A DNA stretch of 64,000 bases from Pelagibacteraceae bacterium (GTDB lineage Bacteria; Pseudomonadota; Alphaproteobacteria; Methylaequorales; Methylaequoraceae), in the NCBI GenBank assembly GCA_042090305.1, contig JBELJQ010000002.1, positions 1,970-65,969 on the forward strand, read 5' to 3'. The notes under the pieces are model-generated. The model did no database searches, had not been told where the DNA came from, and saw only the letters and a program-made list of their open reading frames with translations. The translations under genes and the position numbers were made by a program. The first letter of the stretch is position 1. Each line of letters begins with the position of its first letter. Positions 36,868 to 60,856 of the stretch are shown piece by piece.

Positions 36868-38289
36868 ATGAAAGATAAAGTATCAATTCATTGGTTTAGA
36901 CAGGACCTAAGGCTAAATGATAACCCTTCTCTAACTTACTTATCAAATAAATCTAGTAAAGTTGTTTGTGTATATATATACGATAATATAAATTGTGACA
37001 GAGAGCTTGGTTCAGCAAGTAAAATCTGGTTACATCATTCTCTTAATTCGTTAAATAGTGACTTAAATGGAAAACTTATTATTTTAAAGGGTGATCCTTT
37101 AAAAGAAATTGATAAACTCAGGAATTTTTTTGATATTCAGGAAATTACATGGAATAGATGTTATGAACCTTGGTCAATTAAAAGAGACGTTAAAATAAAG
37201 GAATATTTTAAAGATATTTTTTCCGTAAGATCATTTAATGGTTTACTATTATGGGAACCGTGGAATATACTTAAAGATAATGGAACTCCATATAAGGTGT
37301 TCACTCCTTATTATAAAAGGGGGTGTTTAGCAAATCCTTTGCCTGCGAAGCCTCAGTCATATGTTCCAAACTTTTCAAATCATAATTTTAAAGATACAGG
37401 GCCGGATAGCTTAGGTCTGCTTAGTGGGAAAATATGGGAAAAAAAAATTCAGGCCAATTGGCAAATAAGTGAACTTTCTGGTTTAAATTTAATGAAAAGT
37501 TTTTTTTCTGATAAATTAAATAACTATGCAGAGGGAAGAAACTTTCCTTCGCAACAGAATGTATCTAGACTCTCCCCCTACATTCACTGGGGACAGTTAT
37601 CTGTAAATACACTTTGGAATGAAGCTGAGAAATTGGAGTCAAAAGGTAATGATATAAATTTAGAAATATTTAAGAGTGAATTAGCATGGAGAGAGTTCGC
37701 ATATTATTTACTTTATCATTGTCCTAAGCTTTCTAAAGAAAACCTTCAAACTAAATTTGATAAATTTCCCTGGAAAAAAAATACTGATTTTTTTAATTCA
37801 TGGATAGAGGGAAAGACCGGTTATCCTATTATAGACGCTGGAATGAGAGAACTCTATCAAACTGGTTATATGCATAATAGAGTAAGAATGATTGTGGGTT
37901 CATTTCTTGTTAAGAACTTATTAATCGACTGGAGAGATGGAGAAAATTGGTTTTGGGATTGTCTATTTGACGCCAGCCCTGCTAGTAATCCTGCAAGCTG
38001 GCAATGGGTTTCAGGTACCGGAACTGATTCTGCACCATACTTCAGAATATTTAACCCTATTACGCAAGGTAAAAAGTTCGATCCTGATGGAGAATATATT
38101 AAAAAATTTGTTCCCGAATTAAAAAACTTACCGGATAAATATATATTCTGCCCTTGGGAAACCCCATGTGAAATCCAAAAAAAAGTGAATCTTTTTTTAG
38201 GAAAAGACTATCCGACTCCTCTAGTTGATATTAAAGAATCTAGAGAGAGAGCTCTTCATGCATTTACATCAATAAAACAAAAAAATTAA
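36868..38289 (+). CDS. phrB: Deoxyribodipyrimidine (CPD) photolyase, class I
   Basis: WFRQDLRLNDNPSL, TGYPIIDAGMRELYQTGYMHNRVRMIVGSFL, NPASWQWVSGTGTDSAPYFRIFNP. Confidence 0.93.
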   Translation: MKDKVSIHWFRQDLRLNDNPSLTYLSNKSSKVVCVYIYDNINCDRELGSASKIWLHHSLNSLNSDLNGKLIILKGDPLKEIDKLRNFFDIQEITWNRCYEPWSIKRDVKIKEYFKDIFSVRSFNGLLLWEPWNILKDNGTPYKVFTPYYKRGCLANPLPAKPQSYVPNFSNHNFKDTGPDSLGLLSGKIWEKKIQANWQISELSGLNLMKSFFSDKLNNYAEGRNFPSQQNVSRLSPYIHWGQLSVNTLWNEAEKLESKGNDINLEIFKSELAWREFAYYLLYHCPKLSKENLQTKFDKFPWKKNTDFFNSWIEGKTGYPIIDAGMRELYQTGYMHNRVRMIVGSFLVKNLLIDWRDGENWFWDCLFDASPASNPASWQWVSGTGTDSAPYFRIFNPITQGKKFDPDGEYIKKFVPELKNLPDKYIFCPWETPCEIQKKVNLFLGKDYPTPLVDIKESRERALHAFTSIKQKN

Positions 38290-39776
38290 TGAAAAAAAAA
38301 CTATTCTTAATATTAGGAAATCAACTTTTTAATCCCCAATATTTAATGGAATTTAAAAGTGATCATATTTTTTTTATGTGCGAAGATTACCATCTTTGTT
38401 CCTATGAAAAGCATCATAAACACAAAATACTGCTTTTCTTATCTTCAATGAGGTCTTTTAAAGATGAAATGGATACGAATAAGTTTGAATTAATATATAA
38501 AAAAATTAATGAAGAAAGTTTCAAAGTTCAATATTTAGAAAAGTTAGTAAGCGAACTGGAAAATTTAAAAGTTAAAGAAGTTTCTATGTTTGAAATTGAA
38601 GATAAACCGTTTGAAAAAATAATCCTAGATGGATTAGTAAATTTTAAGGTAAATTATATCGATTCACCATCTTTCTTAAGTACAAGGGAAGATTTCAAAA
38701 TTTATCTATCTAATTCTAAGAAGCCATTTATGGCAAATTTTTATAAAACGCAAAGAATAAAACACAATTTATTAATTGATAATGACAATAAACCAGTTGG
38801 AGGAAAGTGGAGCTTTGACTCTGAAAATAGAAAAAAATTACCTAAAAATATAGAAATTCCTGAAAATATTATTTTTAAGGAGACTTTTCATACGAAAGAA
38901 CTAAAAAAAGAAGTTAATCAGAAATTCACAGAAAACCCAGGAGATACAAGAGATTTCTGGCTTGGTACAACAAGAAAAAATGCACAGGAATCTCTTGATC
39001 ATTTTATAAAGTTTAAACTTAATTTATTTGGTGATTATGAAGATGCAGTTGATCAAAGGAATAATATTTTATTTCACTCAGCTTTAAGCCCTTATATAAA
39101 TTTAGGCTTGATAACACCATCAGAAATCTTGTTGAAGCTTAAGTCAATTGATAAAGAAACTAATATTAATTCACTTGAAGGATATATCAGACAAGTTGTT
39201 GGGTGGAGAGAGTTTATCAGAGGTATATACCAGAATTATAGTGAAGAATTAGAATCCAAAAATTTTTTTAATAATAAACGTAAAATGAAAAAAAGTTGGT
39301 ATACCGGAACCACTGGGATACCGCCTCTTGACTATTCTATAAATAATGCATTGAAATACGGTTGGTCTCATCACATAGAAAGATTAATGATATTATCAAA
39401 TATTATGAATCTATCTGGCATAAATCCAAAAGAGGTTTATAGGTGGTTTATGGAAATGTTTGTTGATTCATCAGAGTGGGTTATGACACCAAATGTTTAC
39501 GGTATGGGTTTGTTTAGTGATGGAGGAATATTTGCTACTAAACCTTATATTTGTGGTTCTGCATATTTTCTCAAAATGATGGACTTTAAAAAGGGTGATT
39601 GGTGTCATACAATGGATGGTTTATATTGGAATTTTATAAATAAAAATAGAAATTTTTTTCAAAAAAACCCTAGACTTTCAATGATGGTTAGAATACTTGA
39701 TAAAATGAATAAAGAAAGAAAAGATAAAATCTTTAAAGCAGCTAATGAATTTATAGATAAAAATACTGAAGATTAA
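38289..39776 (+). CDS. Cryptochrome/photolyase-family protein of the CryPro / FeS-BCP (6-4)-photolyase-related group (COG3046-like)
   Basis: GGKWSFDSENRK, YEDAVDQ, LSPYINLGLITP, GWREFIRGIY, GWSHHIERLM, MTPNVYGM motifs. ATGA overlap with phrB. Only 4 Cys in total (31, 37, 422, 439). Confidence 0.8.
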   Translation: MKKKLFLILGNQLFNPQYLMEFKSDHIFFMCEDYHLCSYEKHHKHKILLFLSSMRSFKDEMDTNKFELIYKKINEESFKVQYLEKLVSELENLKVKEVSMFEIEDKPFEKIILDGLVNFKVNYIDSPSFLSTREDFKIYLSNSKKPFMANFYKTQRIKHNLLIDNDNKPVGGKWSFDSENRKKLPKNIEIPENIIFKETFHTKELKKEVNQKFTENPGDTRDFWLGTTRKNAQESLDHFIKFKLNLFGDYEDAVDQRNNILFHSALSPYINLGLITPSEILLKLKSIDKETNINSLEGYIRQVVGWREFIRGIYQNYSEELESKNFFNNKRKMKKSWYTGTTGIPPLDYSINNALKYGWSHHIERLMILSNIMNLSGINPKEVYRWFMEMFVDSSEWVMTPNVYGMGLFSDGGIFATKPYICGSAYFLKMMDFKKGDWCHTMDGLYWNFINKNRNFFQKNPRLSMMVRILDKMNKERKDKIFKAANEFIDKNTED

Positions 39777-41780: not shown

Positions 41781-42638
41781 TTAGAGAATAAAAAACACTC
41801 CAGTAGACAAAATTATTACACCTACTATTTTTTGTACATTTATTTTTTCTTTAAAAATTAAAAATCCAAAAAGAACCGCACATGTTTGCCCTAATGTCCT
41901 TTTTATAGCTTCCATAATTGCTACATAGTTCTCTAATACTGAATAAAATTGTAATACCGTAGCAATAGTTCCCACACACAAAGTTATAATAATTAAGCCA
42001 GAATTTTTATATATTTTATTTAAATTAGTTAGATCTTTTCGCGAAATAATGAGTAGGAAGAGAAGCATACCAAATGATTGAATTAAACCGTGCATATTAA
42101 CGGATGTATAATTCAAGCAAATTTTATCAAAAATTGGAGTGATACTCCACAATACTGAAACAAGAATCATTAAGCGTGCCCCTAAGTTCAAACTTATTAC
42201 TTTAAAACTTTTAAAAATAGATTTGATTTCAAATTTTTCAGCGTACAAGATTAATGTTCCTAGAACTATTATTAAGATTCCGAAATATTCTATTTTTTTA
42301 AGTGTCTCATTCAATATCAGATATGAAAAAAAAGAACTGAATATTGGTGTTAATGACAAAAGTGGGATTGTTAAACTCAAATCGGAAAGAACTAAAGATC
42401 TTAAAAATATTATTGCTGAAATCACGCTGATTAAAACTAAAATCAAGCCTGGTACAAAATATGGTTTTTCAATTTTAAAATTCTCTTCAAAAAAAAACCA
42501 AAAAAAAAAAAATATAAATTGAACAATCATAAATAATATTAATAAAACTTTAGGACTAATGTATTTGAGCGATAATTTTCTTGTAATATCAAATAATGCC
42601 CAGAAAAAACCATTTAAAATACAGATAAATATAGACAT
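41781..42638 (-). CDS. EamA/DMT-family transporter
   Basis: 285 aa, about 10 TM helices in two repeated halves. Confidence 0.75.
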   Translation of the reverse strand: MSIFICILNGFFWALFDITRKLSLKYISPKVLLILFMIVQFIFFFFWFFFEENFKIEKPYFVPGLILVLISVISAIIFLRSLVLSDLSLTIPLLSLTPIFSSFFSYLILNETLKKIEYFGILIIVLGTLILYAEKFEIKSIFKSFKVISLNLGARLMILVSVLWSITPIFDKICLNYTSVNMHGLIQSFGMLLFLLIISRKDLTNLNKIYKNSGLIIITLCVGTIATVLQFYSVLENYVAIMEAIKRTLGQTCAVLFGFLIFKEKINVQKIVGVIILSTGVFFIL

Positions 42639-42848: not shown

Positions 42849-43640
42849 TTACATTCCTGGCAGTCTCATAAGACTAGCACCAACAGAGTCAAGTTCTTCA
42901 GTCATTTGAATCATTTTCACATGCATTTCAAATTTTCTTTGTTGATCAATAGTATTGACCATTTCTTCAACTGCATTAACATTACTTTTTTCTAATGTGC
43001 CGGCAACAAGCTTGCCTTGATTATTTGGCTCAATATCTACTAAACCTATCTGCCCATTCTCGTTAGGCTCAGATTCTAATCTGATATGACCATCAAGAGT
43101 TTTCTTTAGTCGATCATTTTCGGTGGGAACAAATGTAGCAATTAATGCAGCATTTACTGGAAGAGCATCTGGCTCTGCACCTGTTGGCTCAATAATGATT
43201 TCACCATTTGGTGAAATATCAATTCGCCTAAATGCTGGTAAAACAATTGGTTGCAACCCATCATCTAATATTTTATTTCCAGCTCCATCTAGAAGTTCAC
43301 CATTTTCACTAGTTTGTAGGTCACCTCTTCTCGAAAGTGCTGGCTTGCCTCCATCTCTAGGCTCAATTAGGAAATATCCGTTTCCATCGATTGCAATATC
43401 GAGAGGGTTACCAGTAGTGTCCATAGATCCTTGTTGTGTTGAAAATCCACCAACATTTCTACTGGAAACGATTCTTGGCTCAACTCCATTCTGCCTGTTA
43501 AGATAAATTGAACCAAAGTCTGTAACAACATCTTGACGATATCCAGGAGTACTAAGATTAGATAAATTATGAGAAGTGGCCGTTTGATTTTCCATCAACA
43601 TTTTTAGACTATTAAGAGCCGTTTGTGCCATTCTATCCAT
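42849..43640 (-). CDS. flgF: Flagellar basal-body rod protein FlgF
   Basis: N-terminus TSHNLSNLSTPGYR. C-terminus LEKSNVNAVEEMVNTIDQQRKFEMHVKMI matches FlgF (E. coli ...ANARRFEMQMKVI). Follows flgE. Confidence 0.85.
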   Translation of the reverse strand: MDRMAQTALNSLKMLMENQTATSHNLSNLSTPGYRQDVVTDFGSIYLNRQNGVEPRIVSSRNVGGFSTQQGSMDTTGNPLDIAIDGNGYFLIEPRDGGKPALSRRGDLQTSENGELLDGAGNKILDDGLQPIVLPAFRRIDISPNGEIIIEPTGAEPDALPVNAALIATFVPTENDRLKKTLDGHIRLESEPNENGQIGLVDIEPNNQGKLVAGTLEKSNVNAVEEMVNTIDQQRKFEMHVKMIQMTEELDSVGASLMRLPGM

Positions 43641-43669: not shown

Positions 43670-46600
43670 TTACATTCTAATATTTACAATCGCCTGTGTT
43701 GTTGCAGCTGTTGTTTCAATCGATTTAGCATTCGCCTGAAAGTTTCTTTGAGCTGTGATTAAATTAACAAGTTCTTCTGTAATATCAACATTAGATCTTT
43801 CAAGTGAACCTGAAAGAACAGTACCAAAACCCTCGGCACCTGCTTCACCAACTGTTGCAGTTCCTGATACAGCTGTTTCTACATATGTTGCATTACCAAT
43901 TTGTTTCAAACCATTTTGGTTGTTAAAGTTTGCCAATACAATCTTACCAAGTGGATTATTCTGTCCATTGGTATAGTTTGCTCTAACGGTACCTGATGCA
44001 TCAATCTCTAGACCATCCAATCTTCCAGATGTAAAACCATCCTGATTAACAGTCGATACGAAGAATGGCTGTGCTAACTGAGTTGACTTTGTAAAGTCAA
44101 TATCAAGGTCAATACTAAAACCAGCTTCCTGTTTCTCGTAATGAACTCCCTGTTTAGGACTTAGAATACTTCCTGATTTGTCAAATGTAAGTTCACCCTC
44201 GTCAATGTATAGTGGAAAATATCCATCTACCAAATTTGCAGGAGGCGTGGTAACTTTATTACCAGCAGCGTCAACAAATAGATTAAGTCCGTCCGCGTTA
44301 GTTGCCTGTTTAAGATTATAAATCTGAGGGACTGATCCTACGCCTAAATCAACGTTATCCAGCCCAAATTTAGAAGCACCTCTGACTTTAATAGTTGATT
44401 CCTTACCAGTTGTTCCGTTGGTAAATGTGAAATTATTAGTGGATGAGTTATATTTTACAGTAATACCCCCACCAACTACTCCGGTACTATCTTCAATCTG
44501 ATTAATTCTTTCTTGAAGAGCTTCTGCAAGAGTTGTTCCCACATAAAATCCCTGAGGTATCTCAATAACCCCAGCGACACCATTTACAGATACGTTAAAA
44601 ATATTTTCATTACTTTGATTTGTTAATCTAAAAACCTGAGATAAATCTTCAGTAGCTGATGAGCCAACTGCTTGTGCTGGCTGGGCGGCTAATCCTTTAG
44701 CATCAGTTGTAATTGCATTAGTTTTAGTAACACCAATTCCCAATAGGTTGTTATCTCCCGAGAAAAAGTCCGTACTGTCAGTCACTGATCCATCGGTAGT
44801 AGATAATAGGTACCTTCCAACAACAATACTTGAAGCAGTTTGAGCTTGGTTAACTCCAATTGCACCATTAGCTGCAATTGTTTCACCTGTTGTACCACTG
44901 CTAAATTCAAAAGATTTTAACTCACTATTATAGCCAACCTTAACTCCAAATCGTTTATCGTTGAGTTGAATTTCAGCTCCGTCAGCAACAAAAGTACTTG
45001 CAGAAAATTTAACACCACCTCTGATGAGTGTTTCAGAAGTATCATCAGCGGTTGGTATTCCAAGATTATTTTCATTAGTTGCAGTTGTTGAACCAAAAAT
45101 CTTGAAACTATTAAAATTACTATTTGTTCCCGTACCTATGAGATTTCTATCCACTTCAAACTGAAGTCTTTGATTTAACACATCATAAGAAACTTCAATT
45201 GGCGGATCTTGCTCATCAACCCAATGTGTTGCTGGTATTGTTTTATCAGTTGATGTTCCATCACCGTTAAGATAAACATCTCTTGTAGTTGCAGATGTAT
45301 TTTCTCCTAATCCTAGTAATTCATAAGAATCAATCGTTGCACCAGAAGTTACTTCACCAACTTTTAGTGTAAATACTTCGGCTAAGTCATCAATGATATT
45401 CTTAGCTGCACCATCTGCAGTTGTTTTTGTTACCATTGCTGCATTTGTATAATCATGCTTAGTCGTTGTTCCTATTTCCCTTACGACAATCTTTGAGCTA
45501 CTAAAGTTGACCGGTGCTCCAGAATAAACGTTTTGTGCTCCCTCAAAGAATGCCTCTACTGATGTAGATTCTTCAGAATAGATTTTCGCTGAATCATTTG
45601 CATCAGCTACAGACAAAGAAAAATCTGAATCTGGAAAATTTAATCCTGCAGTACTAGCTTCAACATAATAATAAGTAGTACCACCCACACTTTCAGACCC
45701 TGTTGTAGAAATAGTAAACTCTCGACCATTCACAAAATCAGAATTTGTATTCATTGTTGTATCTGAATAAAATGATCCAATAAATCTAACTTTTTCATTA
45801 GCTGTGAGTGCTGGGTCAGATGACCCAAAATAAAATCTAACAGTATTTTCAGATTGATCGTATGACACGGCTGTTGTGCTTGCGTTATCACCTAGTGAAT
45901 CTACCTCATCATAAACATGAAGTTCAGGACTTTTACCATGATATGAATAAGTCAGATTTCTAGCTGTAGAAGTAGCTCCAGATGCCGTTAACGCTGCTGC
46001 ATCAGTTGCAGTACGATGATTAAAAGTGAATGCCTGACTTTGGTCCAGTATAGTACTAATAGACTTACCAGATGCTCTGTAGAATAAGCTATCACCCACA
46101 CCTAAAGCAGTTGCACTAGCTACTGCATCGGTAGATGGTGTAACAGCATATTCATTTAGAGCTGCATTTAAACGAGCCTGAGTATGCGCTAAAAATTGGT
46201 CTCTTGTAAAATCCGGTGAAGCTCCAGTTAGGGTGATTCCCTCTAAATCAGAAACATATGAATCACTTAGTAGATCCACTGAAACTGGTGTAGTTAAACC
46301 CGTAGATGTTCCATCAGCGTTTAATTTTAATAAATCAATTGTTAAAGTATCATCAACATTTTGTACAATTTGAATTTTTTTATCATCTCCATAAGCTGCA
46401 TTAACAGCTCTTTGGATCTCTGTAGATAATTGTGCTGCATTATAAGCGCCTGGTCTAATATCAATGTTTACAGGTTGGTCACTATTATCAACGTTAATTG
46501 TCATAAAATTTGTCCCCCAATATACACTGGAAGTTGTGTCACCACTTTCACGAGTTGAGTTAAATTTCATTGGGTCTGTAACAATAGTTACAGTTTTGTC

Positions 46601-47542
46601 TCCTTCTTCACCAAAATCAAACGCACTTGATTCACCTGTTACCTTAGCTGGTGTTGAATCAATTAATGTTTGTAAATCATCTAACTTATACAAGGCAGAG
46701 CCTTTTCCTTCCAAGAAATAGTTATCATCTGGAACTGATGTAGTTTGTTGACCGAAACGATCAATAAAAATAGGTTGTTGAGTATCTGTAACTGAACGCA
46801 CTAAATCTGGATCAATTACCGTATCGTTAATGACCAATCTAGTTTCAAATTTATTGGTAGGATCATCAGCTGATGCTGCTTGTGTACGAATAAAAAATAT
46901 AGTTGCAATTGTGGGGTTACCTAAATCATCAAAGATTGTGATTGATGTTGAGTTATTGTAGGTAGTTGGATCATTAGGATCAAAAACATAACCATTTTCA
47001 AATTGTGGTTTATCGGTAATAATTTCACTTGTAGCAGAAACGTTTACACCTAATTCGATAGATGTTGTTGCCTTCGGAGTTCCTGAAGTTACTGGTAGTT
47101 GAAGAGGCACAGCACTAACTAAATCTTTTGCTGTAACTGATCCATCCTCGTTAACCGGAAAAGTAAGTAAAAACTGACCAGATGAATCTGTAACATATCT
47201 ATCATTATTCACGTTAAATGAACCGTTCCTTGTATAAACCGTCTGACCAGAAGTAAGTGATGGTTTTAATGAAAAGAAACCCTGTCCAGAAATTGCTACA
47301 TCTAAAACGTTAAGAGATGATGTAATATTACCCTGAGTAAACTGCTGCTTTACACTTTTTAGAATTGTACCAGAACCGATCGATGACGATGCATTCTGTA
47401 GTGGAGAAGTTGCAAAAATATCACCAAATTCAGCTCTTGACCTTTTGAAACCGGTTGTATTAACGTTTGCTATATTATTCGAAGTTGCAGAAATATCTGA
47501 CTGTGCTCCGTTTAACCCTGTTAATGCAGTATAAAATGACAT
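43670..47542 (-). CDS. flgE: Flagellar hook protein FlgE, giant form (1290 aa)
   Basis: N-terminus MSFYTALTGLNGAQSDISATSNNIANVNTTGFKRSRAEF. C-terminus LERSNVDITEELVNLITAQRNFQANAKSIETT. Follows flgD. Residues ~235-1085 are an extra Thr/Ser/Gly/Asp/Asn-rich, Cys-free insertion. Confidence 0.85.
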   Translation of the reverse strand: MSFYTALTGLNGAQSDISATSNNIANVNTTGFKRSRAEFGDIFATSPLQNASSSIGSGTILKSVKQQFTQGNITSSLNVLDVAISGQGFFSLKPSLTSGQTVYTRNGSFNVNNDRYVTDSSGQFLLTFPVNEDGSVTAKDLVSAVPLQLPVTSGTPKATTSIELGVNVSATSEIITDKPQFENGYVFDPNDPTTYNNSTSITIFDDLGNPTIATIFFIRTQAASADDPTNKFETRLVINDTVIDPDLVRSVTDTQQPIFIDRFGQQTTSVPDDNYFLEGKGSALYKLDDLQTLIDSTPAKVTGESSAFDFGEEGDKTVTIVTDPMKFNSTRESGDTTSSVYWGTNFMTINVDNSDQPVNIDIRPGAYNAAQLSTEIQRAVNAAYGDDKKIQIVQNVDDTLTIDLLKLNADGTSTGLTTPVSVDLLSDSYVSDLEGITLTGASPDFTRDQFLAHTQARLNAALNEYAVTPSTDAVASATALGVGDSLFYRASGKSISTILDQSQAFTFNHRTATDAAALTASGATSTARNLTYSYHGKSPELHVYDEVDSLGDNASTTAVSYDQSENTVRFYFGSSDPALTANEKVRFIGSFYSDTTMNTNSDFVNGREFTISTTGSESVGGTTYYYVEASTAGLNFPDSDFSLSVADANDSAKIYSEESTSVEAFFEGAQNVYSGAPVNFSSSKIVVREIGTTTKHDYTNAAMVTKTTADGAAKNIIDDLAEVFTLKVGEVTSGATIDSYELLGLGENTSATTRDVYLNGDGTSTDKTIPATHWVDEQDPPIEVSYDVLNQRLQFEVDRNLIGTGTNSNFNSFKIFGSTTATNENNLGIPTADDTSETLIRGGVKFSASTFVADGAEIQLNDKRFGVKVGYNSELKSFEFSSGTTGETIAANGAIGVNQAQTASSIVVGRYLLSTTDGSVTDSTDFFSGDNNLLGIGVTKTNAITTDAKGLAAQPAQAVGSSATEDLSQVFRLTNQSNENIFNVSVNGVAGVIEIPQGFYVGTTLAEALQERINQIEDSTGVVGGGITVKYNSSTNNFTFTNGTTGKESTIKVRGASKFGLDNVDLGVGSVPQIYNLKQATNADGLNLFVDAAGNKVTTPPANLVDGYFPLYIDEGELTFDKSGSILSPKQGVHYEKQEAGFSIDLDIDFTKSTQLAQPFFVSTVNQDGFTSGRLDGLEIDASGTVRANYTNGQNNPLGKIVLANFNNQNGLKQIGNATYVETAVSGTATVGEAGAEGFGTVLSGSLERSNVDITEELVNLITAQRNFQANAKSIETTAATTQAIVNIRM

Positions 47543-47564: not shown

Positions 47565-48269
47565 TTAATCGTTTGTTTTAAGCTTGATTGCATCATTTGC
47601 TGAAATCTCACCATAATCTTTTGTTTCTAAAATTACATCCTCACTATTTTTTGGAGCAGAAGCTGCTATAACCTTATTATAGACGGCTGTACTTATTCCA
47701 TCACTTGCTTGACCATTCCCAGCATATGCTTGGATTGTAAGACGTGTTTTATTGCGTTTTATATCATCAGGTAAATCCGTCCAACTAAAACCAACCAAAC
47801 CTCTATCATTTGAACCAAGATTCATCGTATGAACAATTTCACCACTTGGGTTTGTGAAGGTTATACCCACATCATTTGAGTAAGCCGGCAAATCTACAAC
47901 TCCATGTATTTCACCTTTATCATCTGGGCTCGCAACTTGACCTGGAACTAAAACGGAATGACCTAAAAATTGAGCTGCCGTTGCCACTCTGTTAGGTTCT
48001 AACTTTGATCCTAAATTAGTTAAATTATTATTAATTTCAGTTATACCTGTTACAGTAGAAAATTGTGCCATTTGTGCGATAAAGTCACCATTATCCATTG
48101 GTGCAAATGGATCTTGATTCTGAAGCTGTGTTGTCATTAATTTCAAAAAATCTTCTTGACCAAGCGTATTTTTATTACCTTCTTTTTTTACATCATCTTG
48201 TGTTTTAACTCCCAACTTAGAGAGAATTTTGTTTAATGATTGTTCAGATGTATTTGAAATGTCAGTCAT
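47565..48269 (-). CDS. flgD: Flagellar hook capping/assembly protein FlgD
   Basis: LGQEDFLKLMTTQLQNQDPFAPMDNGDFIAQMAQFSTV is the FlgD signature. flgC-flgD-flgE order. Confidence 0.9.
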   Translation of the reverse strand: MTDISNTSEQSLNKILSKLGVKTQDDVKKEGNKNTLGQEDFLKLMTTQLQNQDPFAPMDNGDFIAQMAQFSTVTGITEINNNLTNLGSKLEPNRVATAAQFLGHSVLVPGQVASPDDKGEIHGVVDLPAYSNDVGITFTNPSGEIVHTMNLGSNDRGLVGFSWTDLPDDIKRNKTRLTIQAYAGNGQASDGISTAVYNKVIAASAPKNSEDVILETKDYGEISANDAIKLKTND

Positions 48270-48282
48270 AATTTACCCCTAT

Positions 48283-48696
48283 TTATTTTCCTAAACTTGC
48301 AGTTTTAAGCATTAGTGCTTTTATTGTTGATATTACTTCAACATTGTTTTGATAGTGTCTAGATGCTTCAAGCATATCTACATATTCTTCTTCAATATTG
48401 ACTGGAGCTCTATAAATAAAACCCTCTTGGTCAGCCATTGGATGGCCAGGTTTATACTCTTTAATTGGCTCAACATCCATTTTTTCTACAGAAACCGCAT
48501 CTACTGTCGAGATTCCCCTTTTCCTAATTAAGTCAAAATATTTAGTTTCGAAAACTGGTTTAACCGGTTTGTAAGCGTCTTGAGGACTAGAAGCAATATT
48601 ATCAGCATTAGCAAGATTACTAGCAGTTGCATTTAGTCTGACTAATTGAGCTCCCATTGCTCTTTGAGCTATATGATATATGTTTTTAATATCCAT
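48283..48696 (-). CDS. flgC: Flagellar basal-body rod protein FlgC
   Basis: LNATASNLANADN and VDMLEASRHYQNNVEV motifs. 137 aa. Confidence 0.92.
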   Translation of the reverse strand: MDIKNIYHIAQRAMGAQLVRLNATASNLANADNIASSPQDAYKPVKPVFETKYFDLIRKRGISTVDAVSVEKMDVEPIKEYKPGHPMADQEGFIYRAPVNIEEEYVDMLEASRHYQNNVEVISTIKALMLKTASLGK

Positions 48697-49085
48697 TATT
48701 CTCCTCTAATTGCGCTTAGCAAACCTCTGATTTTTGAATTTACAAAATCTAAGGTTGTTTGGTATCTAACTGAGTTTTGTGCGAATTCCATTTGCTCTAC
48801 AGCTAATTCAACCGTATTTCCATCAACTGATGGGTTTATAGACTGTCTATACTGGACTTTTCCTGGTAAATACTTTGTTGTTAATGCAATGTGACTATCA
48901 CTTGAAGTTTTTAGTGGACCGTTATTTAACGATCTTGCTAGTTCTACTTCAAAATCAACATCTCTTGCTTTAAAATTTGGAGTAGATGCATTTGCAATAT
49001 TAGATGCTAAAATTTCATTCTTCTTGTTTCTAATACTTAATGCATTGCTGTATACATCAAATTGTTGTTTAATATTGTTAACCAT
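48696..49085 (-). CDS. flgB: Flagellar basal-body rod protein FlgB
   Basis: ILASNIANASTPNFKARDVDFE and FAQNSVRYQTTLDF motifs. I place the start at ATG 49085. The track start at 49130 lies on top of the sigma-54 promoter. Confidence 0.85.
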   Translation of the reverse strand: MVNNIKQQFDVYSNALSIRNKKNEILASNIANASTPNFKARDVDFEVELARSLNNGPLKTSSDSHIALTTKYLPGKVQYRQSINPSVDGNTVELAVEQMEFAQNSVRYQTTLDFVNSKIRGLLSAIRGE

Positions 49086-49101
49086 AATTTTTTTTCGCTT
49101 T

Positions 49102-49117
49102 TGGTTTGGAATTTGCA
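49102..49117 (+). promoter_or_regulatory. Possible sigma-54 promoter for the divergent 369-aa gene
   Basis: The + strand reads TGGTTTGGAATTTGCA. GG-N10-GC spacing is exact and the -12 TTGCA is perfect. The -24 element deviates (TGGTTT). It shares the palindrome ATTTGCAAAT with the flgB promoter. The predicted +1 is near 49128, with a GAAAGG SD before the ATG at 49149. Confidence 0.45.
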
Positions 49118-49129
49118 AATTGAATGCCA
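49113..49129 (-). promoter_or_regulatory. Sigma-54 (-24/-12) promoter of the flgBCDEF operon
   Basis: Reverse strand reads TGGCATTCAATTTGCAA, versus consensus TGGCACG-N4-TTGCW. GG and GC have the exact spacing. The predicted +1 is near 49103, 18 nt before the flgB ATG. Confidence 0.75.
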
Positions 49130-49148
49130 AAAGAAAGGTTTTTAAATT

Positions 49149-50258
49149 ATGACTGAAAATAGAACATTTGAAACAAACTTAGATCCCGAGGTTGAAAAAA
49201 TAAGAGATCAGATAATTTCTAAGATTGGAGATAAACCTTTAGAAGAAGTAAATAAGATAATTAAAAAGCTTCTAATGGAAAATATGGATGAAACTATGAG
49301 ATTAGCTGCTCTAGCAGCAAGAGTTAAAATCATAAGAGGCAAAATAGCTCTACTTTATGATAGAAAAGTCCAAATCAAGCCTAATTTAAAAACTAAAATA
49401 CCAACCGAAGAAAAAATTATTGAATCAAAAAGAAATGAAACTAGGTGGGTAAGAATAAAAATGCTTGAGGCTGGCGAGGTGAATGGTAAACAAATTGATA
49501 AAGATGTAATTCTAGATGTTAAAGAAGAAGATTCAAAAATCTTAATTGATGCAAAAAAAGCAGAGATCATTAAAGAAAACGCAGAAAATGCTGAACCAAT
49601 TAGTAAAGCAGAACCTTTAAAAAAGGAAACTCCACCAAAAGAGAGCGAAAATTTAAAGGACTCAGAAAAGAAAGAAAATGTGAAAGATGAAACAACGAAT
49701 GACACAAATATTGAAAAAACAGTTCCAGATAATGATGACCCTAAGGAAAAAAAAATAAATTCGGATGCTAAAGAACCCAAAGATGAAAAGGTGAATCCCG
49801 ATACAGAAGCTACAAAAGATGAGAATGTAAATTCAAATAAAGAATCATTAAGTGATGATAAATCTAGTAAAGATTTACTAGATAAACATTTAGAAAAAGA
49901 AAAAATAGAGGATAAAGATATAAATGAAGAAGAGGGGAGTGATGCAAATAAAGAAATAAAAAATTCCAGTACGGAAGAAACTAGATCTAAAACTGTTAAA
50001 GATAATCAGAATAAAGATAAGGTTAGCGAGGCAGCTGAAGAAGTTGAAACCGATAAATTAGAAAAAGTTGATGAAAATAAAAAAGTGGAGAGCAAAACTT
50101 TGGACGATAAACCTAAAGCTTCATCTGAAGATTCTAAGCAAAATGGTGTAGAAAGTAATGAAGCAATAGATAATTCTAAAAATGATGATTCTGAAAAAAA
50201 AATATCTGAAGAAAATGAATCAACAGAAAATGAATCAACAGAAAATAAAAAATTATAG
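49149..50258 (+). CDS. Hypothetical protein: ~140-aa N-terminal domain plus ~230-aa Lys/Glu/Asp/Asn-rich disordered tail
   Basis: 369-aa ORF divergent from flgB. I recognise no motif. The tail has no Cys or aromatic residues and ends in a TENESTENESTEN repeat. Confidence 0.6.
   Translation: MTENRTFETNLDPEVEKIRDQIISKIGDKPLEEVNKIIKKLLMENMDETMRLAALAARVKIIRGKIALLYDRKVQIKPNLKTKIPTEEKIIESKRNETRWVRIKMLEAGEVNGKQIDKDVILDVKEEDSKILIDAKKAEIIKENAENAEPISKAEPLKKETPPKESENLKDSEKKENVKDETTNDTNIEKTVPDNDDPKEKKINSDAKEPKDEKVNPDTEATKDENVNSNKESLSDDKSSKDLLDKHLEKEKIEDKDINEEEGSDANKEIKNSSTEETRSKTVKDNQNKDKVSEAAEEVETDKLEKVDENKKVESKTLDDKPKASSEDSKQNGVESNEAIDNSKNDDSEKKISEENESTENESTENKKL
50211..50246 (+). repeat. 15-bp tandem repeat (GAAAATGAATCAACA x2.4) in the 3' end of the 369-aa ORF
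   Basis: Read directly: gaaaatgaatcaaca gaaaatgaatcaaca gaaaat. It is in frame and encodes ENEST ENEST EN. Confidence 0.9.
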
Positions 50259-52440: not shown

Positions 52441-52869
52441 TTATGGGTTAAAAAAGTATATATGTTGACTGTTTGTATTAGATGAATGGTCAATATTTTT
52501 AATGTTTTTTATGAGGTTCATTATTTGATTTAATGAAGGGATAGTTAAACTTTTTCCAGCAAACATATAATTCGGGTTGTTTCTAACAAATGCATGTTTA
52601 TTCATTTCTAGTACTGAAACTTCTATCATTCTCATATTTAAACCACTATTACCGTAATATTTTTTTAAAATATCACTTAAAGATTCTCCTTTTTTTATCT
52701 TATGTTTGACGTGATGACTTGGATTTTTTACAAAATCATTGTTTTTATTTGGAGATGTGCCCTTAGAATAATTTCCTTTGTAATCAAGAACAACAAATGG
52801 TTCCTGAGAGAATGAAAAGGTGGATATTAATAGTGTTATAAATAAAATTTTAATTTGAATAATTCTCAT
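52441..52869 (-). CDS. Secreted small protein with FimV-type LysM peptidoglycan-binding motif
   Basis: Signal peptide, then HKIKKGESLSDILKKYYGNSGLNMRMIEVSVLEMNKHAFVRNNPNYMFAGKSLTIPS. This resembles the FimV/HubP N-terminal LysM (..GDTL..IA......Q....L...NP.AF...N.N.L..G..L.IP). Confidence 0.55.
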   Translation of the reverse strand: MRIIQIKILFITLLISTFSFSQEPFVVLDYKGNYSKGTSPNKNNDFVKNPSHHVKHKIKKGESLSDILKKYYGNSGLNMRMIEVSVLEMNKHAFVRNNPNYMFAGKSLTIPSLNQIMNLIKNIKNIDHSSNTNSQHIYFFNP

Positions 52870-52878
52870 ATAACTTTC

Positions 52879-54060
52879 CTAGTTAATAAATTTTATAAAT
52901 TTACCTTCAATAAATTCGTTTTTATTATTTGGGTTTAAGGGTTCAATCTCAGAAAAATCTTCATTTATGTTTTTAACTGTAACAACAATCCAATCATTCA
53001 TACTGACATCCATTCCATTTGGGGAAATTATACCAAGCTTATCTTTACTAAGACCTTGATTACTTCCTAATGAAACAATTAGCTTGTTGTTGATTTTTTT
53101 TACAACCGCTTCAAGTGGACGACATTTTAGCTGATCCATAACTCTGTACTGAACTTTTGATAAACTTTTTTCAACTAATACTCTTATTTTATCGTATGAC
53201 TTTTTGTAAAAGGCGTCAATATGCTGATATCCAGTTTTTTGTCCTAAAAATAAAGAAAAGTCATATTCTAAACTATCTATGAGATTAAAATTACTATTTT
53301 GATAAACGTCCAGTCTAAGTTTTATTAATATCTCTTTTGAGAATCTACCAATATTTCCGTCAATACTGTCTATGATTACAGTTGGATGAACAGCAAATTC
53401 ACCATCTTTTAGAGACATAGATTTTCCTTCCACAATACTGTCGTAGTCTAAGTCTGAAGATTTGATTGGTATTTTCTTTACATTAAAAAAAACATTTGAT
53501 TTATCTCTTAACCTTATAAAATCAATATTTCTTAAATTTTTTCTAATATTTTCTGAAATAACATTTGGAAGTTTATGAGTCCATGGTTCAAGCTTACTTG
53601 AAACTGTAAAGTGAGGAGAAAGAAATGACAAATTTACAAAATTTCTATCAGAGCAATCAGAAGATGTATTTATATTTATTAGATATGCCTTAATTTTTAT
53701 TACATAATGACTTTTATCCTCTTTTTCATCCAATATCACAAAATCAGTAATGGTAGACGCTGGTCTAACTAAAAGGTTTTCGCTTAATCTAGTTAAATTG
53801 TCTACATTAGAATATCCGTCAATTTTCGCACCACCTCTTAAACTTGCAAGATATAATGCATCATCAAGAGCTCTTTTTTTTGCAATTTCCTTATTACCAT
53901 CACTTATAACAGCTCTTCCTTCTGTAATAATTTCTTTTAGACCAAAACTATCAGCCAAAGCATATGTGGAAATAAGCAAAAGAAATAATACACTTAAAAA
54001 AAATGAAACTAGTTCTCTTAAAACTACATCAAATAAGCTATATTCAACTTTTCTAAACAT
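52879..54060 (-). CDS. FlgT-like periplasmic flagellar protein (tentative)
   Basis: 393 aa, N-terminal signal/anchor. EGRAVISDGNKEIAKKRALDDALYLASLRGGAKIDGYSNV resembles an FlgT_N/LPP20-type fold. Size and position next to flgP match Vibrio flgT (~380 aa). Confidence 0.4.
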   Translation of the reverse strand: MFRKVEYSLFDVVLRELVSFFLSVLFLLLISTYALADSFGLKEIITEGRAVISDGNKEIAKKRALDDALYLASLRGGAKIDGYSNVDNLTRLSENLLVRPASTITDFVILDEKEDKSHYVIKIKAYLININTSSDCSDRNFVNLSFLSPHFTVSSKLEPWTHKLPNVISENIRKNLRNIDFIRLRDKSNVFFNVKKIPIKSSDLDYDSIVEGKSMSLKDGEFAVHPTVIIDSIDGNIGRFSKEILIKLRLDVYQNSNFNLIDSLEYDFSLFLGQKTGYQHIDAFYKKSYDKIRVLVEKSLSKVQYRVMDQLKCRPLEAVVKKINNKLIVSLGSNQGLSKDKLGIISPNGMDVSMNDWIVVTVKNINEDFSEIEPLNPNNKNEFIEGKFIKFIN

Positions 54061-54063
54061 ATT

Positions 54064-54570
54064 CTATAAAGTTTGGGCAGACCTAAATAAATAGGCAACC
54101 ATGTCTTGGTCTATTTCTAAAACAGTTTCATAAGTGTCTTGACCAGTTGGATTTATTCTTACTGTTCTCGCGCCTCTGATAACTCCGGATACTACACCTC
54201 TAAAAGTGTCATTTTGAACCATTAAATCAATAACAGTTGTATTACTGTCTACTTTTAATCCATGAATTTGTTCAGCTAAATCTCTCATTGCCGACATTCT
54301 CGCAGCTCTTATAGCCATCAATCTTTTCTGTTCAATACTCTGGCCTGGTTGACTAGATACCACTGCATAACCCGTTGCAGTGAGTGTCGGAAAATTAATA
54401 GATGCACCATCAAGTAACTCTCTTGTTTTGTTTAACTGATCAGTAGGGGTTGAATAATCCTGACTATTAGCTAACTTTTGATTATTGTTTGGTAATCCTA
54501 TATTATCTAATAAGTTTGTCGAACATGATTGCACCAAAATTGCAATAATAAATAAATATATGTACTTCAT
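54064..54570 (-). CDS. FlgP-like LPP20-family flagellar lipoprotein
   Basis: Lipobox-like ILVQSCS. LPP20 core TATGYAVVSSQPGQSIEQKRLMAIRAARMSAMRDLAEQIHGLKVDSNTTV. Confidence 0.6.
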   Translation of the reverse strand: MKYIYLFIIAILVQSCSTNLLDNIGLPNNNQKLANSQDYSTPTDQLNKTRELLDGASINFPTLTATGYAVVSSQPGQSIEQKRLMAIRAARMSAMRDLAEQIHGLKVDSNTTVIDLMVQNDTFRGVVSGVIRGARTVRINPTGQDTYETVLEIDQDMVAYLFRSAQTL

Positions 54571-59907: not shown

Positions 59908-60693
59908 TTACCTGGATGAAAACTTTTTTGTTATTTCTACTTCTGACTGAAGAATTTTTGAACATCCATTAAATGCACGTTGTGTCCTCAACATTAAAAC
60001 AATTTCATCAGTAATGTCTGTATTAGATCTCTCAAGAAATCCAGGCTCAATCTTTCCGATTGTCCCTTCCTTTGGTCTTCCAAACTCAGGTAAACCACTT
60101 TCACCAGTTCTTTTAAACCTTGCATTACCTATATTTTGAAGTCCGTGTTCATTTACAAAGTCAGCAAGCTCAAGCTGCCCTACATTTTCAGTATTATCTA
60201 GTCCATAAGTTGCTAAAATAGAACCATCAGATTTTACAGAAATCTCAGAGAGTAATTGCTGACCAGCCCCTTCGAAAGGTATGTTTATGGGTTGCTGACC
60301 TTCACCTAGTAGCGGTAGTCCATCAGTATTAACAAGGTTACCTGTTCTATCTAATTGAAATGAACCATCTCTTGTAAAAACTGGTTCATCAGTTGATGTT
60401 TCTCTCCCAATTGGTGTTCCCAGAGCAAAAAAACCTTCGCCCATGATTGCTAAATCTAAACTACCATTAGTTTGTTGAAGTGAGCCTTGTGAAAAGTTTT
60501 GTCTTGGCTTAATTGTCCTAACTCCAATACCATTTGCTTTTTCTGTAGAATCATTGTGAATTGACCTGTACATATCCTCAAACTGAGCTTCACTTTTTTT
60601 GAATCCGTTTGTACCGGCATTAGCAATATTATTTGAAATTACTGATAAATCTCTATTAGATGCATCTAGACCAGTTCTAATTATATTAAACAT
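59908..60693 (-). CDS. flgG: Flagellar rod/hook-family protein, FlgG-like (261 aa)
   Basis: From the ATG at 60693: MFNIIRTGLDASNRDLSVISNNIANAGTNGFKKSEAQFED. C-terminus LERSNTDITDEIVLMLRTQRAFNGCSKIL. GEGFFAL and FTRDGSF motifs. The 350-aa track ORF is extended artefactually through the antisense of tRNA-Val. Confidence 0.75.
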   Translation of the reverse strand: MFNIIRTGLDASNRDLSVISNNIANAGTNGFKKSEAQFEDMYRSIHNDSTEKANGIGVRTIKPRQNFSQGSLQQTNGSLDLAIMGEGFFALGTPIGRETSTDEPVFTRDGSFQLDRTGNLVNTDGLPLLGEGQQPINIPFEGAGQQLLSEISVKSDGSILATYGLDNTENVGQLELADFVNEHGLQNIGNARFKRTGESGLPEFGRPKEGTIGKIEPGFLERSNTDITDEIVLMLRTQRAFNGCSKILQSEVEITKKFSSR

Positions 60694-60704
60694 GAAGCAT
60701 GAAC

Positions 60705-60720
60705 AGCAATTATTATGCCA
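60705..60720 (-). promoter_or_regulatory. Sigma-54 promoter of the flgG-like gene
   Basis: Reverse strand reads TGGCATAATAATTGCT, with exact GG-N10-GC spacing and a TTGCT -12. The C of the GC is only 13 nt upstream of the ATG. Confidence 0.65.
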
Positions 60721-60768
60721 TTTTTTATTGTTGAGATTCTTTTTTAAATGTATATTGGGATTGTTATC

Positions 60769-60844
60769 GGGCGGATAGCTCAGCTGGGAGAGCAATTGCT
60801 CGACACGCAATAGGTCGCAGGTTCGAACCCTGTTCCGCCCACCA
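60769..60844 (+). tRNA. tRNA-Val (anticodon GAC), CCA encoded, with C at position 33
   Basis: Hand-folded. Acceptor GGGCGGA/TCCGCCC, D arm GCTC-AGCTGGGA-GAGC, anticodon stem ATTGC/GCAAT with loop TCGACAC, T arm GCAGG-TTCGAAC-CCTGT, A73, CCA. Confidence 0.85.
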
Positions 60845-60856
60845 ACATATTGAAAA

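What the first reader, a model, noticed from the sequence alone, without database searches (positions are those of the whole stretch)
44290..46840. Giant 1290-aa hook protein FlgE with an ~850-aa modular central insertion
The canonical FlgE termini are intact. The D0/D1 N-terminus spans residues 1 to ~230, and the D1/D0 C-terminus runs from ~1085 to 1290. Between them lies ~850 aa of Thr/Ser/Gly/Asp/Asn/Ala-rich, Cys-free sequence.

For comparison, Salmonella FlgE is ~400 aa and the large epsilonproteobacterial hooks are ~700-870 aa.

The insertion is visibly modular. Helix-like IN-type motifs recur:
- AAQLSTEIQRAVNAAYG (~370)
- RDQFLAHTQARLNAALNEY (~448)
- TTLAEALQERINQIEDSTG (~1003)

Strand motifs of the form (V)xY(N/D)x6-7FxF(S/T)xGTTG also recur:
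- VSYDQSENTVRFYFGSS (~559)
- VSYDVLNQRLQFEV (~784)
- VGYNSELKSFEFSSGTTGE (~869)
- VKYNSSTNNFTFTNGTTGK (~1029)

Extra outer domains on ~120 hook subunits would create a thick decorated or reinforced hook. That is a very costly investment for a streamlined cell.
Basis: seen in the sequence. Interest (0 to 1): 0.8.

Follow-up and report, generated by a model that had tools for sequence, protein, structure and literature searches.

The report
Giant flagellar hook protein, widespread family
This is an intact 1290-residue flagellar hook protein with about 850 extra residues forming outer domains; the same giant hook gene occurs in at least 161 marine bacterial species, including cultured ones, yet I found no paper describing it.

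Summary
The ORF at 43670..47542 (-) encodes an uninterrupted, Cys-free 1290-aa FlgE sitting in flgB-C-D-E-F order.

**Size of the insertion.** Against the closest solved hook (434 aa), 923 residues replace 77. The net gain is about 846 aa, inserted inside domain D2.

**Not a misassembly.**
- Colinear genes of 1244-1547 aa occur in about 70 species genomes (single-cell, metagenome-assembled and isolate).
- The whole insert is under purifying selection.

**Distribution.** It is not peculiar to this window.
- The insert's signature module is in at least 161 GTDB species: this HIMB59/AEGEAN-169-like clade, SAR116, PS1 and Rhodobacterales.
- These include the cultured Nereida ignava and Plastorhodobacter daqingensis.
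- More distant relatives occur in marine Gammaproteobacteria.

**Architecture.**
- Conserved blocks 231-470 and 776-1085 flank a fast-evolving block, 471-775.
- A beta-beta-helix-beta-beta module recurs at about 343-410 and 978-1050.

**Similarity to known domains.**
- Pfam and PDB sequence searches find nothing for the insert.
- Flagellin_IN is not supported.
- The only fold hint is the outer domain of phage tail-sheath proteins.

**Likely role (inferred).** Outer domains thicken the hook to roughly 30-35 nm and reinforce it, as D3/D4 do in Campylobacter, beneath a variable exposed surface.

**Verdict.** A new variant of a known kind, of moderate interest.

The parts
43670..47542 (-). flgE, 1290-aa hook protein (complete ORF including stop)
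47108..47542 (-). Residues 1-145: D0 helix, Dc stretch and the N-terminal part of D1 (conserved core)
   Evidence: Pfam Flg_bb_rod 3-33 and D1 83-127. 97-100 % identical among close relatives, with dN/dS 0.00-0.07.
46853..47107 (-). Residues 146-230: N-terminal half of domain D2
   Evidence: Pfam FlgE_D2 begins at 186. The alignment to 9yee FlgE runs to residue 221.
46133..46852 (-). Insert block A, residues 231-470: conserved, mixed alpha/beta. It contains module copy M1 and a long helix at 447-466.
   Evidence: Conserved in alignment A1. dN/dS 0.02-0.09. AF2 pLDDT 80-96 from about residue 309.
46313..46516 (-). Module copy M1, residues about 343-410 (beta-beta-helix-beta-beta)
   Evidence: hhalign 343-382 with 978-1015, probability 94 %. 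AF2 secondary structure.
45218..46132 (-). Insert block B, residues 471-775: beta-rich and fast-evolving, presumably the outermost part. The 1537-1547-aa variants carry a further ~280-aa nested insertion here.
   Evidence: aa identity 37-82 % against 84-100 % for the core, and dN/dS 0.10-0.35. AF2 pLDDT mostly above 85. P0099 breaks colinearity between residues 705 and 736.
44693..45217 (-). Insert block C, residues 776-950: conserved beta domain with two partial module copies (782-820 and 845-890), followed by a low-confidence linker at 884-952
44288..44692 (-). Insert block D, residues 951-1085: the signature domain shared by all giant FlgEs found, including gammaproteobacterial ones
   Evidence: Alignment A4. 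AF2 pLDDT above 90 for 951-1073. Foldseek best match is phage tail sheath 8kee_C. 161 GTDB loci.
44393..44611 (-). Module copy M2, residues about 978-1050 (FNVSVNG..IEIP..Y.G.TLAEALQERINQ..ITVKYNS.TNNFTFTNGTTG)
   Evidence: hhalign probabilities 96 % and 94 %
44063..44287 (-). Residues 1086-1160: C-terminal half of D2
   Evidence: NCBIfam FlgE models align from about 1070-1117 onward. 5jxl aligns from 1055.
43670..44062 (-). Residues 1161-1290: C-terminal part of D1 and the D0 helix
   Evidence: Pfam Flg_bbr_C 1244-1287. Alignment to 9yee 290-434.
47565..48269 (-). flgD (hook cap/scaffold), 234 aa, ordinary size
48283..49130 (-). flgC (48283-48696) and flgB (48696-49130)
42849..43640 (-). flgF, 263 aa
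51743..60960 (.). The rest of the flagellar cluster in this window. The genes are flgA (51743-52438 -), flgT-like (52879-54060 -), an LPP20/FlgO-P-like lipoprotein (54064-54570 -), flhA (54771-56918 +), flhF (56842-58023 +), flhG/MinD-like (58016-58810 +), fliA (58820-59521 +) and flgG (within 59908-60960 -).

Best explanation
This gene encodes the only hook subunit found in this window's polar, gammaproteobacterial-type flagellar cluster (flhF/flhG/fliA, flgT, an FlgO/P-like lipoprotein). The organism is a low-GC marine alphaproteobacterium related to HIMB59/AEGEAN-169.

**Core (shown).** The D0-D1-D2 core is conventional and closest in sequence to solved 434-437-aa hook proteins (PDB 9yee, 8z5u).

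**Insert (shown).** About 846 extra residues are inserted into D2. They fold into at least four additional domains: A (231-470), B (471-775), C (776-950) and D (951-1085).

**Geometry (inferred).** D2 is the outermost domain of an ordinary hook, so the extra domains should stack outward as concentric layers on each of the roughly 120 subunits. That would widen the hook from about 18 nm to roughly 30-35 nm.

**Function (inferred by analogy with Campylobacter D3/D4).**
- The strongly conserved inner blocks A, C and D make additional contacts within and between protofilaments. [quoted passage not shown]
For: **Identity and context.**
- Pfam and NCBIfam hits plus the flgBCDEF gene order.
- The cluster also contains flgA, flgT, LPP20, flhA, flhF, flhG, fliA and flgG.

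**Insertion inside D2.** Pfam FlgE_D2 is split, and the alignment to 9yee stops at residue 221 and resumes at 1145.

**Real and functional.**
- An identical protein occurs on an independent ENA contig, and there are hundreds of 90 %-identity clusters of 1251-1657 aa.
- In about 70 GTDB species genomes the complete genes are 1244-1547 aa, across 31-67 % GC.
- dN/dS is 0.02-0.19 in blocks A, C and D and 0.10-0.35 in B.

**Folded domains.** AF2 pLDDT is 80-96 over about 309-849 and above 90 for 951-1073.

**Nested, outward-growing architecture.**
- Conserved flanks surround a variable centre.
- The extra 280 aa of the 1537-aa variants lies inside block B.

**Precedent.** The C. jejuni FlgE domains D3 and D4 are inserted through D2. 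They widen the hook from 180 to 280 A and make it more robust (PMC5097172, PMC5069557).
Against: - There is no direct evidence of expression, assembly or hook width in any organism carrying this gene.
- Nereida ignava, a cultured carrier, was described as non-motile (PMC4770636).
- The insert shows no sequence or fold similarity to Campylobacter D3/D4, so the mechanical analogy rests on position, not homology.
- AF2 was run on a monomer fragment and I could not inspect coordinates. Inter-domain nesting and lattice contacts are therefore inferred, not modelled.
- The diameter estimate assumes the packing density I back-calculated for C. jejuni.
- dS is saturated, so dN/dS values are approximate.
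Confidence: 0.5

Rival explanations
1. The outer domains are primarily an interaction or protection surface rather than a mechanical reinforcement. The variable block B would act as an adhesin or lectin-like tip, or as a decoy or shield against flagellotropic phages, grazers or proteases, with A, C and D as a scaffold. This is not exclusive of the best explanation.
For: - Block B evolves 5-10 times faster in dN than the flanking blocks, and it accepts large nested repeat insertions in relatives.
- The conserved module's only fold relatives are the surface-exposed domains of phage tail-sheath proteins, i.e. decorations of another helical tube.
Against: - dN/dS in B is still well below 1 (0.10-0.35), so there is no signal of positive selection at this resolution.
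- No lectin, Ig-adhesin or enzyme domain was detected by Pfam, PDB sequence search or Foldseek.
- The hook is a tiny fraction of the flagellar surface, so it is a poor adhesin or decoy.
Confidence: 0.2
2. The insert is selectively near-neutral baggage. It would have been acquired once in a horizontally mobile flagellar cluster and carried along, with no specific function beyond not disturbing hook assembly.
For: - The same gene, with an identical MSFYTALTGLNG start, is found across several alphaproteobacterial orders with very different GC. That is consistent with horizontal spread of the cluster.
- fla3-type clusters are reported to spread by horizontal operon transfer in Rhodobacterales (PMC12363192). 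I did not classify this window's cluster by that scheme.
Against: - Blocks A, C and D are under strong purifying selection (dN/dS 0.02-0.19) at saturated dS.
- The 2.5-kb insert is retained in genomes with about 31 % GC and compact gene spacing.
- Length is conserved at 1244-1547 aa in about 70 species.
Confidence: 0.08
3. Artefact: a misassembly, a chimera, a fused or frameshifted gene, or a pseudogene.
For: Nothing specific to this ORF. Some database relatives are clearly fragmented or chimeric, for example P0143 and the short fragments.
Against: - The reading frame is intact.
- An identical protein occurs on an independent contig, and colinear genes occur in single-cell, metagenome-assembled, long-read and isolate assemblies.
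- The insert is under purifying selection throughout, and AF2 confidently predicts folded domains.
Confidence: 0.02

Closest known systems
Campylobacter jejuni / Helicobacter FlgE with extra domains D3 and D4 (865 aa; PDB 5JXL, 5AZ4; TIGR02489 flgE_epsilon)
   Same: - A hook protein enlarged by outer domains inserted through D2.
- Those domains widen the hook (280 A against 180 A) and add stabilising contacts.
- The surface-exposed parts are variable (PMC5097172, PMC5069557).
   Different: - The insert here is about twice as large: 846 against roughly 460 extra residues.
- It is unrelated in sequence (TIGR02489 scores 149 bits against a 412.85 cutoff, through the core only).
- It is unrelated in predicted fold (no Foldseek match).
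- The host lineage and flagellar cluster type are also different.
Ordinary 434-437-aa FlgE of solved polar flagella (PDB 9yee, 8z5u)
   Same: These are the closest core sequences. D0, D1 and both D2 halves align with E about 1e-69. The window's cluster also has flhF, flhG, fliA and flgT.
   Different: Those proteins have 77 residues where this one has 923.
Giant flagellins of marine Oceanospirillales (Bermanella marisrubri, Oleibacter marinus; PMC6248924)
   Same: - The same phenomenon occurs in the next axial component: proteins over 1000 aa made by expansion of the outer, variable region, giving thick filaments in marine bacteria.
- A distant giant FlgE sharing block D is annotated from an Oceanospirillaceae bacterium.
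   Different: - That is a different protein (flagellin, not hook).
- The paper does not analyse hook protein sizes.
- No sequence relation to this insert was tested.
Surface domains of contractile phage tail-sheath proteins (cyanophage A-1(L) sheath, PDB 8kee chain C; BFVD 'Sheath tube')
   Same: - Block D (beta-beta-helix-beta-beta-beta) superposes over 124 columns at 4.9 A, probability 1.0, E 3.7e-3.
- A BFVD sheath protein matches over 252 columns at probability 1.0.
- Both decorate the outside of a helical tube.
   Different: - Identity is only 18 % and the E-values are marginal. This is a fold resemblance only.
- No sequence-level relation was found, apart from one weak DUF3383 hit at E 0.025 in 1 of 16 sequences.

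Membership tests
FlgE, flagellar hook protein (FlgE/F/G superfamily) | N-terminal D0 rod-type helix (Pfam Flg_bb_rod) | tested here: met
   Residues 3-33, 35.4 bits against a cutoff of 20.7
FlgE, flagellar hook protein (FlgE/F/G superfamily) | C-terminal D0 helix (Pfam Flg_bbr_C) | tested here: met
   Residues 1244-1287, 54.7 bits against a cutoff of 23
FlgE, flagellar hook protein (FlgE/F/G superfamily) | D1 domain and the FlgE-specific D2 domain | tested here: met
   PF22692 at 41.9 bits and PF07559 FlgE_D2 at 52.5 bits against a cutoff of 22.7, in two stretches
FlgE, flagellar hook protein (FlgE/F/G superfamily) | Position between flgD and flgF in a flgBCDEF operon | tested here: met
FlgE, flagellar hook protein (FlgE/F/G superfamily) | Score above an NCBIfam FlgE equivalog cutoff | tested here: inconclusive
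   The best equivalog, NF004238, scores 377.3 bits against a cutoff of 400, because the hit is split by the insert. The subfamily model TIGR03506 is passed at 282 against 70.25.
FlgE, flagellar hook protein (FlgE/F/G superfamily) | Polymerises into the hook in vivo | not testable with these tools
   Needs purification or cryo-EM of hooks from a carrier strain
Epsilonproteobacterial large FlgE (D3/D4 type, TIGR02489) | TIGR02489 score above cutoff | tested here: not met
   149 bits against 412.85, and only residues 1156-1288 align
Epsilonproteobacterial large FlgE (D3/D4 type, TIGR02489) | D3/D4 folds as in PDB 5JXL/5AZ4 | tested here: not met
   Neither Foldseek PDB search lists 5jxl or 5az4 among its top 50 matches. 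The PDB profile search matches only core residues.
Flagellin_IN motif repeats (Pfam PF07196) | Significant match to PF07196 | tested here: not met
   No hit at E<=10 on eight segments. Only 1 of 16 diverse block-D sequences hits, at E=0.04.
Phage tail-sheath surface domain | Shared fold of block D with a sheath outer domain | tested here: inconclusive
   8kee_C: probability 1.0, E 3.7e-3, 124 columns, rmsd 4.9 A, 18 % identity. BFVD sheath proteins at probability 0.99-1.0. No significant sequence relation.

The most novel reading that the evidence does not exclude
The giant FlgEs define an undescribed class of flagellar hook. In it, four or more extra domain layers would form a continuous proteinaceous coat around the joint, 30-40 nm thick.

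Such a coat would put the hook in a different mechanical regime, for example one that does not buckle. That would alter the run-reverse-flick behaviour of small polar-flagellated marine bacteria.

The building block would be a small alpha/beta module shared with phage tail-sheath decorations.

The class would be widespread in abundant ocean clades: the HIMB59/AEGEAN-169-like clade of this window, SAR116, roseobacters and oligotrophic gammaproteobacteria.
Probability: 0.2. Interest if true: 0.75.

Novelty: new variant of a known kind. Interest (0 to 1): 0.55.

Why it matters
**Gap in the literature.** The structural literature treats the 865-aa Campylobacter FlgE as 'one of the longest' hook proteins. 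It describes extra hook domains as a speciality of Epsilonproteobacteria (PMC5069557, PMC5097172).

**What this family adds.**
- It shows that hook proteins 1.4-1.9 times longer exist.
- They carry an unrelated set of outer domains.
- They are standard equipment in several of the most abundant marine bacterial lineages.

**What it makes testable.**
- It gives structural biologists a concrete target, with cultured carriers available.
- It allows a test of whether hook reinforcement evolved convergently.
- It raises the question of how hook stiffness shapes swimming and turning in very small ocean bacteria.

**For annotation.** It identifies about 850 residues of conserved, foldable sequence with no Pfam family.

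Tried and rejected
**Searches for repeats or known domains that found nothing.**
- Self-BLASTP of the protein found no internal repeat, and Tandem Repeats Finder found none in the DNA. Repeats are visible only at profile level.
- Pfam on eight segments of the insert at E<=10 returned nothing meaningful.
- A PDB sequence profile search matched only the FlgE/FlgG/FlgF cores.

**Structure-based searches.**
- Foldseek with the 1031-residue model against PDB gave no convincing match. The endosialidase hits have TM 0.07-0.11 and rmsd 34 A, and I reject them.
- The many antibody or nanobody hits have probabilities mostly below 0.5 and rmsd of 7-15 A. I treat them as generic beta-sandwich noise.

**Database scans that misfired.**
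It succeeded with 4 sequences.
- The third homologue search, with the block-D profile, returned only short fragment ORFs and added little to the alignment.

**Questions left open.**
- I tried to see whether FlgK is also enlarged. In many loci an FlgK-like ORF starts about 4.4 kb downstream of the block-D match but runs off the fetched flank at 360-530 aa, so this is undecided.
- Literature searches for hook proteins over 1000 aa, and for SAR116 or AEGEAN-169 hooks, found nothing.

**Discarded sequence.** P0143 (2492 aa) was considered as a non-FlgE carrier of the module. I rejected it as a probable chimeric or frameshifted ORF, because it holds FlgE pieces plus an FlgD-like tail.


Full report
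**1. What is in the sequence**

The minus strand of 43670..47542 holds one uninterrupted ORF of 1290 codons starting with ATG.

- Pfam finds the four hallmarks of a hook protein:
  - the rod-type N-terminal helix at 3-33;
  - the D1 domain at 83-127;
  - the FlgE-specific D2 domain, split into two stretches from 186;
  - the C-terminal helix at 1244-1287.
- NCBIfam's FlgE models align to residues 1 to about 230-270 and again from about 1070-1160 to the end. They fall just short of their equivalog cutoffs only because the hit is split (best 377 bits against 400). The FlgE/F/G subfamily model is passed easily.
- The flanking genes are flgB, flgC and flgD upstream and flgF downstream.
- The protein has no cysteine, and the middle is rich in Thr, Ser, Ala, Gly, Asp and Asn.
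- The finding's coordinates 44290..46840 correspond to residues about 235-1085.

The descriptive part of the finding is correct.

**2. How big the insertion is and where it sits**

- The closest solved proteins by sequence are 434-437-aa hook proteins (PDB 9yee, 8z5u; E about 1e-69).
- In the residue-level alignment, window residues 4-221 match 3-212 of 9yee and residues 1145-1289 match 290-434.
- So 923 residues stand where the ordinary protein has 77, a net gain of about 846.
- Both boundaries lie inside D2, the outermost domain of an ordinary hook.
The insertion is a D2 insertion, which is also where C. jejuni and Caulobacter add their extra domains (PMC5069557).

**3. It is not an assembly artefact**

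- A 100 % identical protein is on an independent ENA contig. The first homologue search listed about 110 further clusters of 1254-1547 aa at 66-95 % identity, apart from a few truncated ORFs.
- A profile search listed about 100 more clusters of 1251-1657 aa.
- A scan of one genome per GTDB species, using the last insert domain as query, found 161 loci.
  - In the 80 loci retrieved, every gene not cut by a contig end or interrupted is 1244-1547 aa.
  - All of these begin MSFYTALTGLNG.
  - The genomes have 31-67 % GC and come from single-cell, short-read MAG, long-read MAG and isolate assemblies.
- I computed Nei-Gojobori dN/dS against 11 relatives:

| Region | dN/dS |
|---|---|
| Core | 0.00-0.07 |
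| Block 231-470 | 0.02-0.09 |
| Blocks 776-1085 | 0.03-0.19 |
| Block 471-775 | 0.10-0.35 |

- dS is saturated, so these ratios are rough. Even so, the whole insert is clearly a constrained coding sequence.
- Read mapping could not be run.

**4. Whose gene is it**

- The nearest genomes (92 % identity in the query domain) are uncultured alphaproteobacterial single-cell genomes. MAGs in this group are labelled Pelagibacteraceae TMED13, Rickettsiales SP101/MED715 and 'alpha proteobacterium MED-G10'.
- MED-G10 was placed next to HIMB59 (SAR11 subclade V) by its authors (bioRxiv 10.1101/134635).
- The window is about 30 % GC.
- The same gene family is present in:
  - SAR116/Puniceispirillales, including a 2.4-Mb 'Ca. 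Ponderosibacter' contig;
  - the PS1 clade and Rhodobiaceae;
  - many Rhodobacterales.
- The Rhodobacterales carriers include cultured strains:
  - Nereida ignava CECT 5292, 1364 aa;
  - Plastorhodobacter daqingensis CGMCC 1.12750, 1250 aa;
  - Rhodobacteraceae nBUS_22, 1364 aa.
- More distant complete FlgEs of 933-1650 aa share parts of the insert. Two of them carry gammaproteobacterial names: Oceanospirillaceae, 1153 aa, and Ca. Azotimanducaceae, 933 aa.
- The giant hook protein is therefore a widespread family, not a peculiarity of this cell.

**5. Anatomy of the insert**

- Alignment of close relatives shows two conserved blocks, A (231-470) and C+D (776-1085). They flank a fast-evolving block B (471-775).
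- In the 1537-1547-aa variants a further ~280 residues of ~55-aa repeats sit inside B. That is the pattern expected if domains are nested and the structure grows outward at its tip.
- AlphaFold2 on residues 140-1170 with 34 family sequences gave mean pLDDT 69.7.
  - Confidence is 80-96 across about 309-849 and 954-1069.
  - Confidence is low for the D2 pieces, which were modelled without D1/D0, and for a linker at 884-952.
- A second run on 776-1085 gave pLDDT above 90 for 951-1073.
- Block A is mixed alpha/beta with a long helix at 447-466. Block B is mainly beta. Blocks C and D are small beta or alpha/beta domains.
- Profile-profile comparison of sub-alignments supports a recurring module of two strands, a helix and two strands.
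  - It is complete at about 343-410 and about 978-1050 (probability 94-96 %).
  - It is partial at about 782-820 and 845-890 (67-96 %).

**6. Comparison with known domains**

- Pfam finds nothing for the insert even at E<=10.
- A PDB sequence profile search matches only the axial-protein cores.
- Foldseek does not list the Campylobacter FlgE structures (5jxl, 5az4) among its top 50 matches in either PDB search.
- A P. aeruginosa flagellin appears only at probability 0.6.
- The one consistent signal is block D against the tail-sheath protein of cyanophage A-1(L): 8kee_C, 124 columns, 4.9 A, probability 1.0, E 3.7e-3.
- BFVD sheath proteins also match at probability 0.99-1.0.
- I read this as a shared small fold used to decorate the outside of helical tubes. 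It is not demonstrated homology.

**7. How it most likely works**

*Shown:*
- It is the hook gene.
- The insert is in D2.
- The insert is conserved and predicted to fold.
- Its centre is the most variable part.

*Inferred:*
- The domains project from the hook surface in layers.
- I used the published widths (180 A for Salmonella, 280 A for C. jejuni; PMC5097172) and an axial rise of about 4.1 A per subunit.
  - The roughly 460 extra residues of C. jejuni then fill about 40 % of their annulus.
  - The same density for 846 residues gives a radius of about 17 nm, i.e. a hook of roughly 30-35 nm. This is my arithmetic.
- By analogy with D3/D4, which add contacts within and between protofilaments and are needed for a robust hook (PMC5097172), the conserved blocks A, C and D would reinforce the joint. 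Block B would be the exposed surface.
- The cluster context is a polar system with flhF, flhG, fliA, a FlgT-like protein and an LPP20 lipoprotein. That is compatible with a motor that loads a single hook heavily, but the link is circumstantial.
About 120 x 846 extra residues is about 1x10^5, which is 1-2 % of a typical filament.

*Rivals:*
- A surface-interaction or protective role for block B, which is not exclusive of reinforcement.
- Neutral baggage of a horizontally mobile cluster, which purifying selection argues against.
- An artefact, which is excluded in practice.

**8. Novelty**

- Enlarged hooks are a known kind. The literature I could search describes extra hook domains as confined to Epsilonproteobacteria and 865 aa as near the maximum (PMC5097172, PMC5069557).
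- The giant-flagellin paper does not analyse hook protein sizes. Searches for hook proteins over 1000 aa, SAR116 hooks and AEGEAN-169 flagella found nothing.
- The proteins are in public databases, annotated simply as hook or hook-basal-body proteins.
- Nereida ignava's genome paper lists flagellar genes without comment on FlgE size and reports the strain as non-motile (PMC4770636).
- I therefore rate this as a new variant of a known kind: real, conserved, widespread and uncharacterised, but not unique to this window and not a new principle.

Noticed in passing
P0099, P0104; L031: Variants of the same FlgE of 1537-1547 aa carry an extra ~280-aa segment inside block B. It is made of about three ~55-aa repeats with the pattern 'HG(K/R)TYY...FKLA.S...A...T.I.LT'. 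Pfam gives only a weak E1_FCCH hit (E 0.0025).
   Followed up: partly
window 59908..60960 (-): flgG is separated from flgF by about 16 kb and by the rest of the cluster. The mechanical ORF is 350 aa, but FlgG homology starts at about residue 90, so the true start is probably internal. flgF is followed directly by a non-flagellar membrane protein gene (41781..42638).
   Followed up: partly
window 49149..50258 (+): A 369-aa, extremely Lys/Glu/Asp-rich ORF lies divergent from flgB. It ends in ENESTENESTENKKL and has no Pfam or NCBIfam hit. Its function is unknown. It may be a low-complexity flagellar accessory protein or a spurious long ORF in AT-rich DNA.
   Followed up: no
window 52441..54570 (-): Three genes sit next to flgA. 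They are a FlgT_N-domain protein (393 aa), an LPP20-family lipoprotein (168 aa, FlgO/FlgP-like) and a small LysM/FimV-core-like protein (142 aa). These are components associated with the outer rings and polar landmark of gammaproteobacterial polar flagella, here in a low-GC alphaproteobacterium.
   Followed up: partly
L074, L051: Contigs carrying a SAR116-type giant flgE are deposited in bins named 'Methanobacteriota archaeon IN35' and 'Gammaproteobacteria bacterium WB5_5_057'. These are probably binning contaminants.
   Followed up: no
P0143: A 2492-aa predicted protein contains FlgE insert pieces out of order and ends in an FlgD-like Ig domain, without FlgE termini. It is probably a chimeric or frameshifted gene call.
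   Followed up: partly
P0378-P0424: Many short ORFs of 80-260 aa consist only of block D, and several lie on contigs of 0.1-1.5 Mb. This suggests that giant flgE genes are often broken by frameshifts in some (probably long-read) assemblies.
   Followed up: no
L024-L080, about 4.4 kb downstream of the block-D match: In many SAR116 and Rhodobacterales loci an ORF with an axial-protein N-terminus (probably flgK) begins after flgF-G-H-I. It runs off the fetched flank at 360-530 aa, so its full length is unknown, as is whether the junction protein is also enlarged.
   Followed up: partly
window 36868..39776 (+): Two adjacent photolyase-family genes are present: a DNA photolyase with FAD_binding_7, and a DPRP/cryptochrome-like protein. 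This is consistent with a sunlit surface-ocean organism.
   Followed up: no
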